DNA of 64,000 nt. It comes from Escherichia phage phiEc_1. Position numbers and translations under genes: made by a program. Below the pieces are notes generated by a model. It was not told the DNA's origin, searched no databases, and saw only the letters and a list, made by a program, of their open reading frames with translations. The stretch is taken from sequence record LC768462.1; one strand, 5' to 3'. Below are positions 13,673 through 23,251 of the stretch, one piece after another. How positions within the stretch are numbered: the stretch's first letter is position 1; every line of letters starts with the position of its first letter.

Positions 13673-14872
13673 ATGTTTCCAGTAACATTAGAAGATACTG
13701 AAGGTAATGTTTTAACAGTCAACCCTCCTTGTTATGGGTTCCTTCAGCTTCGCAACTATAACGGTGGCGTTGATGAAGACGATGAAGAGTATGATGACTA
13801 CTTCGACCCTAACATGTATGAGGCAACTCATGGATGGAATATGCACGTTCGAGTGTGGCATGAAGAAGCTAACGTTCGTAGTGCTGATGGGGAAGAGTTC
13901 CTGTTAAGCCGAGAGATGGATATGTGTAAAATCAAGCATATCTGGAACTCTGGAACTCATATGAAGATGTTAGGTTTTAGACGTTGGCGTGATGAAAAGC
14001 ATGTAGCTGAAGCTTTAAGTTGGTGTTCGTATGAAGATGAAGACACGCCCCCTAAGAACAACATCGAACGTTGGAACGACAAAAACCCTGAGCATCGAAC
14101 CACACCTCGTGCTGTACTGGAAGCTATGGAAGCATTTGTGGACAAAGATCGTCCCTCCTGTTTACGCTGGCACGATAAAGGTTTTATGGGGGTAGCAACT
14201 GAGAATATCCCTGCTGATCGTTGTCTGTTCTATTTGATGTTAGACCGAATCTTCTATTGTGAAGATGAAGAGAGTCAAGTTGAAACCTTCCTCCATAAAT
14301 GGTTGGTTGAAGGCTGGACAATCCTTCAGGCTTATGTTTACTCACGAATGGTTAGCACTTACACTAACCTCTTAGGGGAAACGAAAGCAACTCTGGTTGG
14401 TAATGATTGGGATGCTTGTATCTTCCCAGCGTCGCTGTTTACAGTTGGCATGGCTAATAAATACGCTGAAGCATTTCAAGTGCCTTGGCGTCAACAGTCA
14501 TATAGAGATGGATGCGGTCATTTCCGTGATGAAGACTTTAAGTGGATTCATTACGAGAATGATGAAACAGCAGAATTACGAGTTAACAACTCAATGTTCT
14601 TGCCAGTGATGCACCCCGATCTAGTAAAAGACGGGTCAGAGACACTTAAAGGTGATAATCTTTTGGTTAACTTTACCCGTCGCGTGTCTAAAAATGAGAA
14701 AACAGCTAACAGGTTAATCTACGGCATTCGTGCCGAGGCTAAAGACCTGTTCAACATCTACAACATCATTCAGCGATTTAGTAGTGGAACTCTGGACCAA
14801 AGTTCGGAGTATTCAGTGATTCCGTCCTCTGAGTGGGATGGTATTATGAGCGGATTATTTTTAGGAAAATAA
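13673..14872 (+). CDS. acidic hypothetical protein (first gene of enzyme cluster)
   Basis: ORF track; GAGG SD. Confidence 0.6.
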   Translation: MFPVTLEDTEGNVLTVNPPCYGFLQLRNYNGGVDEDDEEYDDYFDPNMYEATHGWNMHVRVWHEEANVRSADGEEFLLSREMDMCKIKHIWNSGTHMKMLGFRRWRDEKHVAEALSWCSYEDEDTPPKNNIERWNDKNPEHRTTPRAVLEAMEAFVDKDRPSCLRWHDKGFMGVATENIPADRCLFYLMLDRIFYCEDEESQVETFLHKWLVEGWTILQAYVYSRMVSTYTNLLGETKATLVGNDWDACIFPASLFTVGMANKYAEAFQVPWRQQSYRDGCGHFRDEDFKWIHYENDETAELRVNNSMFLPVMHPDLVKDGSETLKGDNLLVNFTRRVSKNEKTANRLIYGIRAEAKDLFNIYNIIQRFSSGTLDQSSEYSVIPSSEWDGIMSGLFLGK

Positions 14873-14882
14873 AAGGTTAGTT

Positions 14883-15854
14883 ATGTCAATCTCCACAACG
14901 ATCGTACCTCTTAATCTTCAACAGGATTTAGGGGAACAGAAGTTCTTAGGTCGTGGGTGCTTCGGTATCCACAACTACATGCAAGGTCAAGTCGTATATG
15001 ATGTTAATGACGAATGTGTAATGGAAGATGGGCGCCATAAACGCTTCAACCGTGACATTAACTTGCAATTGGAGATGTTGAATTACTGGACCCACTCTTT
15101 TCATGGTCATGTTCCATCTGATATTGAAAAGAACTTGATTGAAACAGCAGACATTATGAATTCTATGTCTTGCTATCGTGATGTATTTACTATCACTTCA
15201 GCGAACAGTGTTGCTGTCAATCTTCGTGAGCATCCAGCAGATCAGATCTTCACAGGACTTATGCTCTTCCGTAGTATTCTGGAAGGGCAATATCGTGGAA
15301 TGGATTTCCTAGCAGAAGGAATTGAAGACAGGGAAGAGTGGCTGAAGCGTAAACGCATCGGCATCGCTCTAGTGTTAGCTGGGTTGGGTCGTGACTTCTT
15401 CGGTGGGTGGTCTCAACGAGGAAGAGCCAATGGGAGTAGCGAGAGCACCTCTATTGTTATTAACAACAATATGTCAGCAGCAGCTTTCCTTCCTTTGGTT
15501 GTAGACTCTGATGAATATACGAAGCAAGTATGGGTTCAAAACCCCTTCGGTGTTGGCGACAATGAGAATGGTTATGTTCGTAACCACAACCAAGATGCCT
15601 TACGAAGATTTGCTCGTGCTAAAGATCAAGACCCAGACGAGTATGAAACAATGTCAGAGTGGTTAAGACTCTGGTCCAACTGTTATGGTCACAAACGTGA
15701 AGCAATAGACGACAAGTTGGGAAACATTACGGTACAAAACTTTACATCCCGACTGATTCAAAGAACTGGAGCAGATTCCGGTCTTACTCTTGAAGAAGTT
15801 GGTAACACAATCTCATCTCTCTTTTCTGAACTAGTGGAGTATTACAATGACTAA
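14883..15854 (+). CDS. hypothetical protein (cluster-associated)
   Basis: ORF track; tightly spaced with neighbours. Confidence 0.6.
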   Translation: MSISTTIVPLNLQQDLGEQKFLGRGCFGIHNYMQGQVVYDVNDECVMEDGRHKRFNRDINLQLEMLNYWTHSFHGHVPSDIEKNLIETADIMNSMSCYRDVFTITSANSVAVNLREHPADQIFTGLMLFRSILEGQYRGMDFLAEGIEDREEWLKRKRIGIALVLAGLGRDFFGGWSQRGRANGSSESTSIVINNNMSAAAFLPLVVDSDEYTKQVWVQNPFGVGDNENGYVRNHNQDALRRFARAKDQDPDEYETMSEWLRLWSNCYGHKREAIDDKLGNITVQNFTSRLIQRTGADSGLTLEEVGNTISSLFSELVEYYND

Positions 15855-16653
15855 GCGCAAATTCCTCATCGGCTCTGACCCTGAAATGTTCGTTCGTACT
15901 AGTAATGGTATCATCACTTCTGTAGCCGGTTTATTAGGCTGCTCTAAGGACGATAAGATCGCTCTGGCTAAGGATGTTCGTCTCCAAGAGGACAACGTAC
16001 TGGCTGAGTTTGATATTGACCCACAGAGCGGTTTTGAAGCGTTTAACGATAACATGCAACGTGGTATTGATCTCACCAATAATGTCCTGAACAAACTGGA
16101 CATGGAAACAGCTCCGGGTGTTAGCTCTCACATCTTCACTGAAGAAGAGATGAAGACCTTTAACGAATCAGCGTTCATCTTCGGGTGCACTCCTGATTTC
16201 AACGCCTTCACTGGTCAGAAAAACCCATCCCCGACTTCTCAGAATAAGGGACTTCGTACTGCCGGTGGTCACGTACATCTTGGCGTAGTTGGTGCTTTGG
16301 ATATCACTCTGCAAACTCAGATGATACTGGGTGTGTTGTGTGACTACTTCCTGTCTCTCCCAGCAGTAATTATGGACAAAGATACTCGCCGTAAAGAACT
16401 CTACGGTAAAGCATCTGCAATCCGTTATAAAGACTATGGTATTGAATACCGCTCTCTGTCTAACTTCTGGATTAGTGATCGTGAAAACCGTAAGTTTGTT
16501 TACGATCAGGTTGACAAGGTTGTTCAGCAGTGTGATATGTCCACTCTGATGGCATTGCACTCTCGCCTTCCGATTGAGAAGCTTCATGAAATCATTAACG
16601 GGAACAACGTTAAAGAAGCTGACCAGCAGATCAAACTCCTTCAGGTAGCATAA
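15847..16653 (+). CDS. putative COOH-NH2 ligase (amidoligase)-like protein
   Basis: GSDPEMF near N-terminus and GGHVHLG motif, reminiscent of phage-type amidoligases; weaker than 17277 call. Confidence 0.4.
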   Translation: MTKRKFLIGSDPEMFVRTSNGIITSVAGLLGCSKDDKIALAKDVRLQEDNVLAEFDIDPQSGFEAFNDNMQRGIDLTNNVLNKLDMETAPGVSSHIFTEEEMKTFNESAFIFGCTPDFNAFTGQKNPSPTSQNKGLRTAGGHVHLGVVGALDITLQTQMILGVLCDYFLSLPAVIMDKDTRRKELYGKASAIRYKDYGIEYRSLSNFWISDRENRKFVYDQVDKVVQQCDMSTLMALHSRLPIEKLHEIINGNNVKEADQQIKLLQVA

Positions 16654-16662
16654 GAGGTTATC

Positions 16663-22385: not shown

Positions 22386-22567
22386 ATAAGTATAAAGTTC
22401 TGTTTAAAGATACTAACGATGCTGGTGATATGCGAGCTATGGACCTAGATGCTGACATGTTTAACTTCTCTGATGGCAAAGTAGCCTTCTTTCAGGGAAG
22501 CGAAGCTGTTGCAGTATTTGAGAGTGCAGCAATCTGCGGTGTAATCAAAATCTTTATTACAGAGTAA
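22382..22567 (+). CDS. hypothetical protein
   Basis: ORF track; GTG start. Confidence 0.4.
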   Translation: MNKYKVLFKDTNDAGDMRAMDLDADMFNFSDGKVAFFQGSEAVAVFESAAICGVIKIFITE

Positions 22568-22620
22568 TCTGCTTTAGCCTCTTCGAAAGAGGAGGCTAGT
22601 TCGGATAAGCTGGAGGTTTT

Positions 22621-22830
22621 ATGAAACATGAAAGATTGAGTAAAGCCATTGACTCTGTATGGGATTCTGGGTGTATTATATACCGAGAGCACGACTCATA
22701 CGGACAAACCAGAATATTGATTCTTAATTCCTTCTGTGAGCAGTTGGGGTTAGAAGTATTTGTAACAGGAGCCACTGATCAGCAGTGTGCTTACATTGAA
22801 AACATCGTTAAAGACTGGAAAGGTATTTAA
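22621..22830 (+). CDS. hypothetical protein
   Basis: ORF track; GGAGG SD. Confidence 0.5.
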   Translation: MKHERLSKAIDSVWDSGCIIYREHDSYGQTRILILNSFCEQLGLEVFVTGATDQQCAYIENIVKDWKGI

Positions 22831-22831
22831 A

Positions 22832-23251
22832 ATGTCAGAAGTAATTTACGTAGCAACTTATGGTTCTCTTCGTCGTGGTCAAGCTAACTATTTAGTTAAT
22901 GACCGAGCTGGTGCTAAATCTATTGGAGAAGGTTGGACTGAAGATAACTTCGATCTGTTCCGTTACGGTGGTTCCTACTTCCCGAGCATCTCTCTCGCAC
23001 ACAGCAATAACAATAAGCCTGTTCGTGTAGAAGTGTTTGCTACTGACAAAGCAGGTCTGGAAGGTCCGTATGACCGTCTGGAAGGTTACAACAAACGTAG
23101 CCCTGAAGACAGCTTCTATCAGCGTACTCAGATTGCTGTTAAGATGGACTCAGGTGAAACTGTTATCGCTTGGATTTATCATATCGACGAAGAACAAGAT
23201 GTTCTGGTTGAATCTGGTGACTGGTCAGAGTATCTGAAAAGTGAATCTTGA
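22832..23251 (+). CDS. gamma-glutamyl cyclotransferase (GGCT/AIG2-like)
   Basis: YVATYGSLRRG, VRVEVF, DRLEGY...YQR motifs; ATG 22832 in track frame. Confidence 0.7.
   Translation: MSEVIYVATYGSLRRGQANYLVNDRAGAKSIGEGWTEDNFDLFRYGGSYFPSISLAHSNNNKPVRVEVFATDKAGLEGPYDRLEGYNKRSPEDSFYQRTQIAVKMDSGETVIAWIYHIDEEQDVLVESGDWSEYLKSES

What the first reader, a model, noticed from the sequence alone, without database searches (positions are those of the whole stretch)
13673..23251. Amidoligase / class-II glutamine amidotransferase / ATP-grasp / gamma-glutamyl cyclotransferase cluster with unknown product
A co-oriented run of genes encodes two amidoligase-like proteins (15847-16653, 17277-18380), a GAT-II/Ntn-hydrolase protein with an N-terminal Cys nucleophile and a Cys-pair C-terminal region (18460-20490), an ATP-grasp ligase with an acidic tail (20934-22130) and a GGCT/AIG2-like cyclotransferase (22832-23251), plus three large proteins with no recognisable motifs (13673-14872, 14883-15854, 16663-17280). 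This combines enzymes that make amide/peptide bonds (ATP-grasp, amidoligase), one that can supply or remove amide groups (GAT-II) and one that cleaves gamma-glutamyl linkages (GGCT). That is a complete write/erase toolkit for gamma-glutamyl or peptide-like tags, or for a small peptide-like metabolite. From memory, similar neighbourhoods have been noted computationally in phiEco32-like phages, but I know of no biochemical characterisation. It sits between the early and replication modules, so it would be expressed early to mid infection.
Basis: partly seen in the sequence, partly recalled or inferred. Interest (0 to 1): 0.85.

Follow-up and report, generated by a model that had tools for sequence, protein, structure and literature searches.

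The report
Known phage glutamyl amide-ligase gene module
This is the conserved but still biochemically uncharacterised enzyme cluster of phiEco32-like phages (two amidoligases, a glutamine amidotransferase, a RimK-like ATP-grasp ligase, a gamma-glutamyl cyclotransferase and helper proteins); it was already described by computer analysis in 2009, and its product is still unknown.

Summary
The window is a Kuravirus: 99.9% identical to phage EK5 and 96.9% to phiEco32. Coordinates 13673-23251 are phiEco32 genes gp88 to gp77. All five domain assignments hold up in HMM searches, including the GAT-II start at a rare ATT codon followed by Cys.

The cluster is not new. It is the phage amidoligase module of Iyer et al. 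2009, and Pfam PF14395 is named "phage phiEco32-like COOH.NH2 ligase".

What I add:
- About 300 of 50,697 phage genomes, from several families, carry the three ligases together.
- The invariant core is COOH-NH2 ligase, a gp85-like protein and Amidoligase_2, always adjacent and in that order, plus a GAT-II with a zinc ribbon and a RimK-family ATP-grasp.
- GGACT, gp88/gp87 and DUF7195 are accessory.
- The COOH-NH2 ligase, the one component I scanned for, is essentially confined to phages.
- The cluster is interrupted by gp79, a known RNA polymerase regulator that is not part of the module.

Every enzyme family present handles glutamate, glutamine or gamma-glutamyl amides. The best reading is therefore an ATP-driven pathway that makes and trims glutamyl amide bonds on an unknown acceptor.

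I found no biochemical characterisation. DNA hypermodification is unlikely. Novelty: already known. Interest is moderate.

The parts
13673..14872 (+). gp88-like protein (399 aa). Unknown function. Probable distant paralogue of gp87. Lineage-specific accessory member.
   Evidence: No Pfam or NCBIfam match. Hits phrog_13063, unknown function. Twenty-one homologues, all about 390-410 aa, with many invariant polar residues. Shares colinear motifs PADR..LM..R and WRQ..GH.RD with gp87, but hhalign gives only E 0.05-0.19. Weak hits to proteins in the equivalent position in phage 7-11.
14883..15854 (+). gp87-like protein (323 aa). Unknown fold and function; looks like an enzyme. Accessory member.
15847..16653 (+). 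COOH-NH2 ligase type 2 (gp86). Core member.
   Evidence: PF14395 at 2.5e-8. phrog_3815 at 2e-117. Invariant G-H-x-H, E-x-R, D/N and R/K residues across 6 phage groups. Found in 306 phage records. Only 14 loci in 100,044 species genomes, all resembling phage contigs.
16663..17280 (+). gp85-family protein (205 aa). Core member, always located between the two ligases. Probably an adaptor or regulatory subunit.
17277..18380 (+). Amidoligase_2 (gp84). Core member.
   Evidence: PF12224 at 1.5e-7. All 8 aligned homologues match, the best at 9e-43. Invariant G-x-E-x-E-x-E, H-x-H and E-x-R motifs. Found in 297 phage records.
18381..18459 (+). Conserved leader of the GAT gene, with two small hairpins and a Shine-Dalgarno sequence (AGGTGGA).
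   Evidence: About 55 nt upstream of the ATT start are identical in the window, phiEco32 and Suseptimavirus SU7, although the proteins are only about 70% identical. Folding z-score is only -1.8. No Rfam match.
18460..20490 (+). Class-II (Ntn) glutamine amidotransferase domain (aa 1 to about 235), then a variable middle region, then three zinc-ribbon-like Cys motifs (gp83). Core member. ATT start codon.
   Evidence: GATase_6 at 1.1e-14, GATase_7, GATase_4. NCBIfam matches GlmS, PurF, AsnB and EgtC in the N-terminal domain only. Invariant residues across 15 homologues: C2, G3, R29-G30, H84-x-R86-x-x-T89-x-G91, H99-P-F, H110-N-G112, D129-S130. No acceptor or synthase domain recognised. A C-terminal CxxC...CxxC motif is conserved in most homologues.
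20493..20726 (+). DUF7195 small protein (gp82). Accessory member that follows GAT in several lineages.
   Evidence: PF23825 at 4.7e-17. Homologues lie directly after GAT in SU7, 7-11, Vp_R1 and PaP3. No conserved C-terminus.
20707..20931 (+). gp81 small protein (74 aa). Seen outside the window only in phiEco32; membership in the module is uncertain.
   Evidence: Hits phrog_13464, unknown function. Among the eight loci then in hand (L001-L008), the only BLAST hit was to phiEco32.
20934..22130 (+). RimK-family ATP-grasp ligase (aa 1 to about 278), acidic linker (aa 279-328), and an 82-aa C-terminal domain (gp80). Core member.
   Evidence: NCBIfam rimK_fam at 2.8e-8 and MptN at 4.3e-8, both far below their curated cut-offs. 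A 16-sequence profile hits E. coli RimK structures 4iwx and 5zct at 4.4e-13 over nearly the full length; Ddl, cyanophycin synthase and LysX score weaker. Invariant K85, R121, E157, R159, K173, D229, E241, N243. Hits phrog_2599 and phrog_20552. Found in 313 phage records.
22832..23251 (+). GGACT/AIG2-like gamma-glutamyl(amine) cyclotransferase (gp77). Accessory member.
   Evidence: PF06094 at 3.4e-17. YGSL motif at aa 10 and LEGY at aa 83. Homologues lie next to the module in SU7, PaP3, Vp_R1, 7-11, phiM6 and DES1, but were not detected in PA11-type loci.

Best explanation
**What it is.** This is the phiEco32 gp88-gp77 enzyme module, the phage amidoligase system first described computationally by Iyer, Abhiman, Burroughs and Aravind in 2009.

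**Core composition.** There are five proteins:
- a stand-alone class-II glutamine amidotransferase that ends in a zinc ribbon;
- two different carboxylate-amine ligases (COOH-NH2 ligase type 2 and Amidoligase_2);
- a small beta-barrel protein (gp85 family), always encoded between the two ligases;
- a RimK-family ATP-grasp ligase.

In Kuravirus the core is joined by a GGACT-type cyclotransferase, a DUF7195 protein and the probable paralogues gp88 and gp87.

**Most likely mechanism (inferred, not shown).** In the cytoplasm of the infected cell, during early to middle infection, the three ATP-dependent ligases successively form amide bonds that involve glutamate. The bonds are gamma- or alpha-glutamyl linkages, made via acyl-phosphate intermediates, on an acceptor that is still unknown.
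- The GAT-II either supplies ammonia from glutamine, turning an activated carboxylate into a carboxamide, or hydrolyses a gamma-glutamyl amide.
- GGACT, and Peptidase_C26 in other phages, removes a gamma-glutamyl group, releasing 5-oxoproline or glutamate.
- gp85 probably bridges or regulates the two ligases.

The acceptor is more likely a small molecule or a peptide-like cell-envelope precursor than DNA.
For: **Identity**
- 96.9-99.9% DNA identity to phiEco32 and EK5, with a gene-for-gene match.
- PF14395 is named after this phage.

**One functional unit**
- The three ligases occur in 297, 306 and 313 phage records with the same genus distribution.
- The COOH-NH2_lig / gp85 / Amidoligase_2 triad is invariant, with GAT-II and the ATP-grasp adjacent, in loci from at least six phage groups.
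- Genes are tightly packed and some overlap.
- No gp36-type promoter lies between 6588 and 28311 on the + strand.

**Catalytic competence**
- The Cys2 nucleophile and the glutamine-binding residues R86, T89, N111-G112 and D129 are invariant.
- The ATP-grasp Lys and E-x-N residues are invariant.
- E-x-E, H-x-H and E-x-R motifs are invariant in both ligases.
- GGACT has the YGSL and LEG motifs.

**Glutamyl theme**
- The nearest relatives of the ATP-grasp are RimK and MptN alpha-L-glutamate ligases.
- GAT-II binds glutamine or a gamma-glutamyl moiety, and it gives a weak hit to EgtC.
- GGACT acts on gamma-glutamyl amines, according to the Pfam family definition.
- PA11 carries an extra Peptidase_C26, and phiM6 has an ORF annotated as Peptidase_C26. 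phiM6 also has a second GAT-II.

**Other points**
- The GAT has no acceptor domain, so it must work in trans.
- The COOH-NH2 ligase is confined to phages: only 14 phage-like contigs among 100,044 species genomes.
Against: - No substrate, product or complex is shown by any result here.
- The GS/GCS-like fold of the two 'amidoligases' rests on Pfam family membership and sequence motifs. A profile search found no solved relative. hhalign did not link the two families to each other. I did not model them.
- The ATP-grasp scores far below the curated RimK cut-offs (33.5 bits against 143), so glutamate as its substrate is an extrapolation.
- GGACT is missing from many module-bearing loci, so trimming of gamma-glutamyl groups cannot be essential to the core chemistry.
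- Persistent adjacency to primase/helicase could point to a nucleic-acid-related role.
Confidence: 0.55

Rival explanations
1. Cell-wall modification (the published speculation). The module amidates or adds glutamyl-type residues to peptidoglycan precursors, or to another envelope peptide. This would change the cell surface, for example to block superinfection or to prepare for lysis.
For: - This is the reading attributed to Iyer 2009 and Hardies 2013 by later papers.
- Glutamine-dependent amidation of stem peptides is established chemistry: MurT/GatD, and AsnB-type amidation of mDAP (own knowledge).
- Nearly all hosts of complete modules are Gram-negative bacteria with the same mDAP-type wall.
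- The ATP-grasp has secondary similarity to D-Ala-D-Ala ligases.
Against: - There are no Mur-ligase, transglycosylase, flippase, signal-peptide or membrane features in any module protein.
- All enzymes appear cytoplasmic.
- These are strictly lytic phages that gain little from long-term exclusion.
- No experiment supports the idea. The later citations restate a hypothesis as if it were fact.
Confidence: 0.2
2. Protein tagging. The ligases attach glutamate, poly-glutamate or a gamma-glutamyl-linked tag to host or phage proteins, as RimK does on ribosomal protein S6 or PafA/Dop do in pupylation. GAT-II would act as the deamidase and GGACT as the eraser of gamma-glutamyl-lysine isopeptides.
For: - The best structural-family match of the ATP-grasp is RimK.
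- The Pfam GGACT family acts on epsilon-(gamma-glutamyl)lysine (own knowledge).
- gp85 is a non-enzymatic barrel with a conserved flexible loop. It could present a substrate or be one.
- gp89, immediately upstream, ends in Gln here and in Glu in SU7.
Against: - No conserved tag-like small protein exists in the core.
- DUF7195 has no conserved C-terminus.
- gp89 is confined to Gordonclarkvirinae and lacks a GG motif.
- gp85 has no invariant Lys or Glu across the deep family.
- Similarity to RimK is far below the level expected for a true functional equivalent.
Confidence: 0.15
3. DNA or nucleotide modification. The module decorates phage DNA or its precursors with an amino-acid-derived group. 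This would explain the unexplained resistance of Gordonclarkvirinae to restriction-modification (RM) systems.
For: - The BASEL study reports strong RM resistance with no known modification pathway.
- The window keeps 10 EcoRI, 28 EcoRV and 5 EcoKI sites, so loss of sites does not explain that resistance.
- The module sits next to primase/helicase in most lineages.
- Amino-acid-bearing thymidines exist in other phages (own knowledge).
Against: - DNA of phage tf, which carries the module, was cut with RsaI, HpaI, EcoRV, SmaI and HaeIII and then cloned.
- The window encodes ThyX, which makes ordinary dTMP. It has no ThyA-type hydroxymethylase, and no nucleic-acid-binding, glycosylase or transferase domain was recognised in the module.
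- Strong avoidance of CCWGG, CTGCAG and GAGCTC shows the DNA is still exposed to restriction.
- Adjacency to replication genes is explained by synteny inherited among related podoviruses.
Confidence: 0.07
4. No common function. The genes are independent auxiliary enzymes that stay together only because the region is inherited as a block.
For: - Unrelated genes are interleaved: gp79, gp78, a 69-aa ORF, and HNH endonucleases in SU7, UFV-P2 and phiM6.
- The order of GAT and the ATP-grasp relative to the triad varies.
Against: - The genes co-occur in about 300 genomes from families that share little else.
- Gene order around the triad is reshuffled, yet no core member is ever lost.
- The GAT lacks an acceptor domain of its own.
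Confidence: 0.03

Closest known systems
phiEco32 gp77-gp88 / the phage amidoligase-GAT-II-ATP-grasp module (Iyer et al. 2009, Mol Biosyst 5:1636; Pfam PF14395, PF12224)
   Same: It is the same genes: 97% DNA identity to phiEco32 with the same order. The same module occurs in PaP3/LUZ24/UFV-P2/tf, PA11, phiM6, 7-11 and Vp_R1.
   Different: Nothing substantive. Compared with phiEco32, the window has one extra 69-aa ORF (22621-22830).
Glutathione synthesis and the gamma-glutamyl cycle (GshA-type ligase + GshB ATP-grasp + GGCT/ChaC)
   Same: The enzyme logic matches: a GS/GCS-superfamily ligase, then an ATP-grasp ligase, with a cyclotransferase that releases 5-oxoproline (own knowledge of the pathway; domains).
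   Different: This module has two ligases from distinct phage-specific families, an extra GAT-II and the gp85 protein. The ATP-grasp is closer to RimK than to GshB. No thiol chemistry is indicated.
RimK (ribosomal protein S6 poly-glutamylation) and the related LysX/ArgX, CofF and MptN glutamate ligases
   Same: These are the best sequence and profile matches for the ATP-grasp, with conserved ATP- and Mg-binding residues.
   Different: 33.5 bits against a curated cut-off of 143 bits, so it is not an equivalog (a confirmed functional equivalent). The phage protein has an extra acidic linker and an 82-aa C-terminal domain. The substrate is unknown.
Ergothioneine EgtA/EgtC and butirosin BtrJ/BtrG 'gamma-glutamyl handle' chemistry
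   Same: A ligase adds a gamma-glutamyl group, and a GAT-II-like amidohydrolase (EgtC) or a GGCT-like enzyme (BtrG) later removes it (own knowledge). The phage GAT-II gives a weak EgtC hit at 2.5e-4.
   Different: There are no methyltransferase, sulfoxide synthase, carrier protein or aminoglycoside genes. The resemblance is in logic only.
Pupylation (PafA ligase / Dop deamidase / Pup)
   Same: Carboxylate-amine ligases of the GS/GCS superfamily (own knowledge of the Pfam clan) are paired with a deamidating activity. The bond formed is a gamma-glutamyl isopeptide, the kind a GGACT could cleave.
   Different: There is no Pup-like tag and no proteasome link. The two phage ligases are not detectably related to each other or to any solved protein.
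MurT/GatD and AsnB-type peptidoglycan amidation
   Same: Glutamine-dependent amidation of a peptide carboxylate by a ligase plus a separate glutaminase (own knowledge).
   Different: GatD is a class-I GAT and MurT is a Mur ligase. Neither family is present here.

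Membership tests
Phage amidoligase module (Iyer et al. 2009) | COOH-NH2 ligase type 2 (PF14395) present | tested here: met
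   E 2.5e-8, above the gathering score. phrog_3815 at 2e-117.
Phage amidoligase module (Iyer et al. 2009) | Amidoligase_2 (PF12224) present | tested here: met
   E 1.5e-7, above the gathering score. All 8 aligned homologues match.
Phage amidoligase module (Iyer et al. 2009) | Class-II GAT and ATP-grasp genes adjacent, on the same strand | tested here: met
   The same arrangement is seen in 15 or more loci.
Phage amidoligase module (Iyer et al. 2009) | Synteny with phiEco32, PaP3 and PA11 | tested here: met
Class-II (Ntn) glutamine amidotransferases | Cys directly after the initiator, acting as the N-terminal nucleophile | tested here: met
   ATT-TGT-GGC at 18460. Start codon plus Cys-Gly in all 7 homologues.
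Class-II (Ntn) glutamine amidotransferases | Glutamine-binding and oxyanion residues (Arg, Thr, Asn-Gly, Asp) | tested here: met
   R86, T89, N111-G112 and D129 are invariant in 15 sequences. Assigning them to GlmS R73/T76/N98-G99/D123 is my own reading of the motifs.
Class-II (Ntn) glutamine amidotransferases | Fused acceptor (synthase) domain with an ammonia channel | tested here: not met
   Pfam and NCBIfam match only aa 2-236. The rest is variable and ends in zinc ribbons. The structure of the C-terminal part was not modelled.
RimK-family alpha-L-glutamate ligases | ATP-grasp catalytic residues | tested here: met
   K85, R121, E157, R159, K173, D229, E241 and N243 are invariant in 16 sequences.
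RimK-family alpha-L-glutamate ligases | Score above the curated family cut-off | tested here: not met
   rimK_fam gives 33.5 bits against a cut-off of 143.4. Pfam RimK gives 18.3 against 21. RimK is nevertheless the best solved relative.
RimK-family alpha-L-glutamate ligases | Adds L-glutamate to a C-terminal glutamate | not testable with these tools
   Needs an enzyme assay.
GGACT/AIG2-like cyclotransferases | Pfam PF06094 above threshold, with the YGSL motif and the catalytic Glu | tested here: met
   63.6 bits against a cut-off of 22.8. YGSL at aa 10 and LEGY at aa 83.
Pupylation-like tagging | Small tag protein with a conserved C-terminal GGQ or GGE | tested here: not met
   No such ORF in the core. 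gp89 ends in KNQ here and VAE in SU7, but it is lineage-restricted and has no GG. The DUF7195 C-terminus is not conserved.
Thymidine hypermodification clusters | ThyA-type dUMP hydroxymethylase, 5-hmdU DNA kinase and aGPT-Pplase-type transferase | tested here: not met
   The window has ThyX (PF02511, 1.2e-43), which is not a hydroxymethylase. No transferase domain was recognised. One P-loop protein (42313-43212) is unassigned. This was a Pfam-level test of selected ORFs only.

The most novel reading that the evidence does not exclude
The core would be a new kind of phage-only multi-enzyme machine. Its parts are GAT-II with a zinc ribbon, two unrelated carboxylate-amine ligases held together by the gp85 barrel, and a RimK-like ligase. 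It would write a glutamyl or gamma-glutamyl mark on a macromolecule in the infected cell: either a host or phage protein, or phage DNA. A mark on DNA would also explain the unexplained restriction resistance of Gordonclarkvirinae. gp87/gp88 would be a new enzyme fold that selects or prepares the target.
Probability: 0.12. Interest if true: 0.85.

Novelty: already known. Interest (0 to 1): 0.4.

Why it matters
About 0.6% of sequenced phage genomes carry this five-enzyme core. They include therapy-relevant Pseudomonas (LUZ24/PaP3-like) and E. coli (Kuravirus) phages. In the groups I examined it is never lost, and I found almost none of it in bacterial genomes (COOH-NH2 ligase scan). Even so, nobody knows what it makes.

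Identifying the product would assign a function to two Pfam families that have no characterised member. It could also reveal a new way in which lytic phages rewire host metabolism, the cell envelope or host proteins.

Kuraviruses that plate on E. coli K-12 are now available (BASEL Bas86-93), so the question is experimentally accessible. The finding itself adds nothing beyond what was published in 2009.

Tried and rejected
1. **Solved structures.** A phmmer search of all 13 concatenated cluster proteins found only weak RimK, GlmS and PurF hits. Profile searches with both ligase families found nothing.
3. **gp87.**
   - The afdb50 library was unavailable.
   - BFVD returned only other unknown phage proteins.
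   - hhalign against both ligase profiles was negative.
4. **gp88/gp87 paralogy.** The motifs are colinear, but hhalign E is 0.05-0.19 and phmmer hits are weak. I report this as probable only.
5. **Link between the two ligase families.** hhalign gave 9% probability, so no link is supported at this alignment depth.
6. **Bacterial, non-phage contexts.** A genome-contig scan returned only 14 phage-like contigs, so there is no informative bacterial neighbourhood.
7. **Pup-like tag.** gp89's Q/E C-terminus and the DUF7195 C-terminus were checked and rejected.
8. **DNA modification.** Rejected as unlikely on three grounds: restriction digestion of tf DNA, the presence of ThyX, and retained avoidance of restriction sites.
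9. **Promoters and terminators.** The consensus scans were no better than shuffled sequence for promoters. No gp36-type promoter lies inside the cluster.
10. **Rfam.** Nothing above chance across the cluster.
11. **Literature.** Nine full-text searches found no biochemical study. The key papers (Iyer 2009, Hardies 2013, Savalia 2008) are not held. Their content is therefore taken from citing papers and from my own memory.

Full report
**What the window is.** The 9.6-kb region is 99.9% identical to Escherichia phage EK5 and 96.9% identical to phiEco32 (genus Kuravirus, subfamily Gordonclarkvirinae). Ninety-eight phage records match it. Gene for gene it corresponds to phiEco32 phi32_88 to phi32_77, directly upstream of primase/helicase (phi32_75).

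**Checking the observation.**
- Pfam confirms COOH-NH2_lig (15847-16653, 2.5e-8), Amidoligase_2 (17277-18380, 1.5e-7), class-II GAT (18460-20490, GATase_6 1.1e-14, N-terminal ~200 residues (aa 76-193) only) and GGACT (22832-23251, 3.4e-17).
- The ATP-grasp (20934-22130) is below Pfam's threshold as a single sequence. It is supported by NCBIfam rimK_fam at 2.8e-8. A 16-sequence profile matches E. coli RimK structures at 4.4e-13 over almost the full length.
- The GAT gene begins at 18460 with ATT, a start codon that the ORF lister cannot see, followed by Cys-Gly. Homologues in seven other phages all have a start codon directly followed by Cys-Gly.
- Its C-terminal third holds three CxxC...CxxC motifs.
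- The three 'motif-less' proteins have no Pfam or NCBIfam match and fall in PHROGs of unknown function.

Three corrections are needed.
- The ATP-grasp's 'acidic tail' is a linker followed by an 82-aa domain.
- 22137-22385 is 100% identical to gp79, a structurally characterised factor that displaces sigma-70. It is an unrelated gene sitting inside the run.
- 20493-20726 is a DUF7195 protein.

**Is it one system?**
- tblastn against 50,697 phage records finds Amidoligase_2 in 297, COOH-NH2 ligase in 306 and the ATP-grasp in 313. The genus breakdown is almost identical: about 120 Pseudomonas and about 93 Escherichia phages, then Vibrio, Aeromonas, Proteus, Salmonella and Cronobacter.
- I examined annotated regions and made iterative-profile gene maps of 20 or more loci. 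They cover Suseptimavirus SU7, 7-11, Vp_R1, PaP3, PA11, phiM6, DES1 and metagenomic contigs.
- These maps show an invariant contiguous triad: COOH-NH2 ligase, then a gp85-family protein, then Amidoligase_2. A GAT-II and the ATP-grasp always lie nearby, in variable order. The published UFV-P2 gene table shows the same order.
- GGACT is present only in some lineages. PA11 adds a Peptidase_C26 (class-I GAT fold), phiM6 has an ORF annotated as Peptidase_C26, and phiM6 also has a second GAT-II.
- A scan of one genome for each of 100,044 bacterial and archaeal species found only 14 loci with the COOH-NH2 ligase. All are MAG contigs or tiny scaffolds with phage replication genes next door. This component, and so probably the module, is essentially confined to phages.

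**The unknown proteins.**
- *gp87 (14883-15854).* It has about 60 invariant positions rich in His, Asp, Glu and Arg. The model (pTM 0.75) has no PDB match. Its best structural neighbours among viral proteins are unknown proteins of 290-320 aa from other module-bearing phages: GAP52, LAh_8, CW02, CVT22 and a LUZ24-like phage. The family has only 23 representatives among 1.84 billion proteins. It is not a divergent ligase.
- *gp88 (13673-14872).* It shares colinear motifs with gp87, and both profiles hit the same 7-11 protein. The statistics are weak, with hhalign E 0.05-0.19. Paralogy is therefore probable, not shown.

**Mechanism.** Catalytic residues are intact everywhere.
- GAT-II keeps Cys2 and the Arg/Thr/Asn-Gly/Asp set that binds the alpha-amino-acid end of glutamine.
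- The ATP-grasp keeps its Lys and E-x-N residues.
- Both ligases keep E-x-E, H-x-H and E-x-R motifs.
- GGACT keeps YGSL and LEG.

Each recognisable family handles glutamate, glutamine or gamma-glutamyl amides:
- RimK and MptN-type alpha-L-glutamate ligases are the nearest relatives of the ATP-grasp.
- GAT-II cleaves the gamma-amide of glutamine or of a gamma-glutamyl compound, and gives a weak EgtC hit.
- GGACT and Peptidase_C26 remove gamma-glutamyl groups.

The GAT has no acceptor domain, so it must cooperate with another protein. The ligases are the obvious candidates.

My best explanation, at confidence 0.55, is an ATP-driven pathway acting early to mid infection. It builds and trims glutamyl amide bonds on an unknown acceptor. 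What is shown is the composition of the module, its conservation and its catalytic competence. What is inferred is the chemistry, the order of steps and the role of gp85.

**Rivals.**
- *Cell-wall modification.* This is the published speculation. It is chemically reasonable, but no envelope-related domain supports it (confidence 0.2).
- *Protein tagging.* RimK-like or Pup-like tagging is possible, but no tag protein is conserved (confidence 0.15).
- *DNA modification.* Gordonclarkvirinae resist restriction without a known mechanism, and the window keeps EcoRI, EcoRV and EcoKI sites. Against this, DNA of the module-bearing phage tf is cut by five restriction enzymes. The window also encodes ThyX, not a hydroxymethylase, and it strongly avoids CCWGG, CTGCAG and GAGCTC (confidence 0.07).
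- *Independent genes.* Contradicted by the co-occurrence data (confidence 0.03).

**Comparison with what is known, and novelty.**
- The cluster is the phage amidoligase system of Iyer et al. 2009, and Pfam PF14395 carries phiEco32's name.
- Later genome papers repeat the peptidoglycan hypothesis.
- Nine full-text searches found no biochemical work.
- No solved structure exists for any module-specific protein.
- In its logic the module resembles glutathione synthesis with the gamma-glutamyl cycle, EgtA/EgtC, BtrJ/BtrG and PafA/Dop. It fails or cannot be tested on their defining features, as set out in the membership table.

**Verdict.** The cluster is already known as a computational entity. 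It remains a genuine functional unknown, of moderate interest (0.4).

Noticed in passing
window 18381-18462; L023 8100-8181: The GAT gene uses an ATT start codon. The ~55 nt leader before it, which includes a Shine-Dalgarno sequence and a small hairpin, is identical between the window, phiEco32 and Suseptimavirus SU7, although the proteins are only about 70% identical. The SU7 RefSeq annotation starts the CDS at a downstream ATG and so loses the catalytic Cys. This suggests translational control of the GAT.
   Followed up: partly
window 22137-22385: gp79 is 100% identical to the phiEco32 protein. It is a characterised RNA-polymerase-binding protein that displaces sigma-70 and stabilises the phage sigma factor gp36. 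It sits between the ATP-grasp and GGACT genes and is not part of the enzyme module.
   Followed up: yes
window 22621-22830: A 69-aa ORF (phrog_13365) is absent from phiEco32 at this position but has a 56%-identical homologue in Salmonella phage 7-11. It appears to be a small mobile or variable gene. This accounts for the two-piece alignment to phiEco32.
   Followed up: partly
whole window (1-64000): Restriction-site statistics are uneven. EcoRI (10), EcoRV (28) and EcoKI (5) sites are retained. CCWGG (2 against about 88 expected), CTGCAG (0 against about 14), GAGCTC (0 against about 15) and GATC (136 against about 250-300) are strongly avoided. Avoidance of 6-bp palindromes scales with GC content: observed/expected is 0.13, 0.54, 0.85 and 1.00 for 0, 2, 4 and 6 A/T positions. 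The published RM resistance of Gordonclarkvirinae is therefore not due to loss of the tested sites.
   Followed up: partly
window 13299-13661: gp89 (120 aa, helical, found only in Gordonclarkvirinae) lies directly upstream of the cluster. It ends in ...KNQ here and ...VAE in SU7. A Gln/Glu C-terminus is reminiscent of Pup, but there is no GG motif and no homologue in other module-bearing phages. I judged it a coincidence.
   Followed up: partly
window 25757-27127, 27137-27670, 30161-30817, 40826-41266, 41930-42322, 42313-43212: The replication region encodes a 456-aa protein with only a weak PolyA_pol/CCA-type nucleotidyltransferase hit (4.6e-3), a dCTP deaminase, ThyX, a macro domain, a SLOG (YAcAr) domain and an unassigned P-loop protein. 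The BASEL authors proposed that the deaminase plus the nucleotidyltransferase might underlie a DNA modification. This was not examined further.
   Followed up: no
L009 (CALKAR010000070.1), L010/L013 (Herbiconiux daphne scaffolds): An 8-kb contig binned into a 'Peptococcaceae' MAG is 99% identical to this Kuravirus region. Two scaffolds of 1 kb or less in a Herbiconiux daphne isolate assembly carry Kuravirus-like fragments. Both look like phage contamination or mis-binning in public assemblies.
   Followed up: no
L023 5092-5562; UFV-P2 ORF24; L004 5976-6419: HNH homing endonuclease genes are inserted at different points inside the module in SU7, UFV-P2 and phiM6. The core genes are not lost in any of them.
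   Followed up: no
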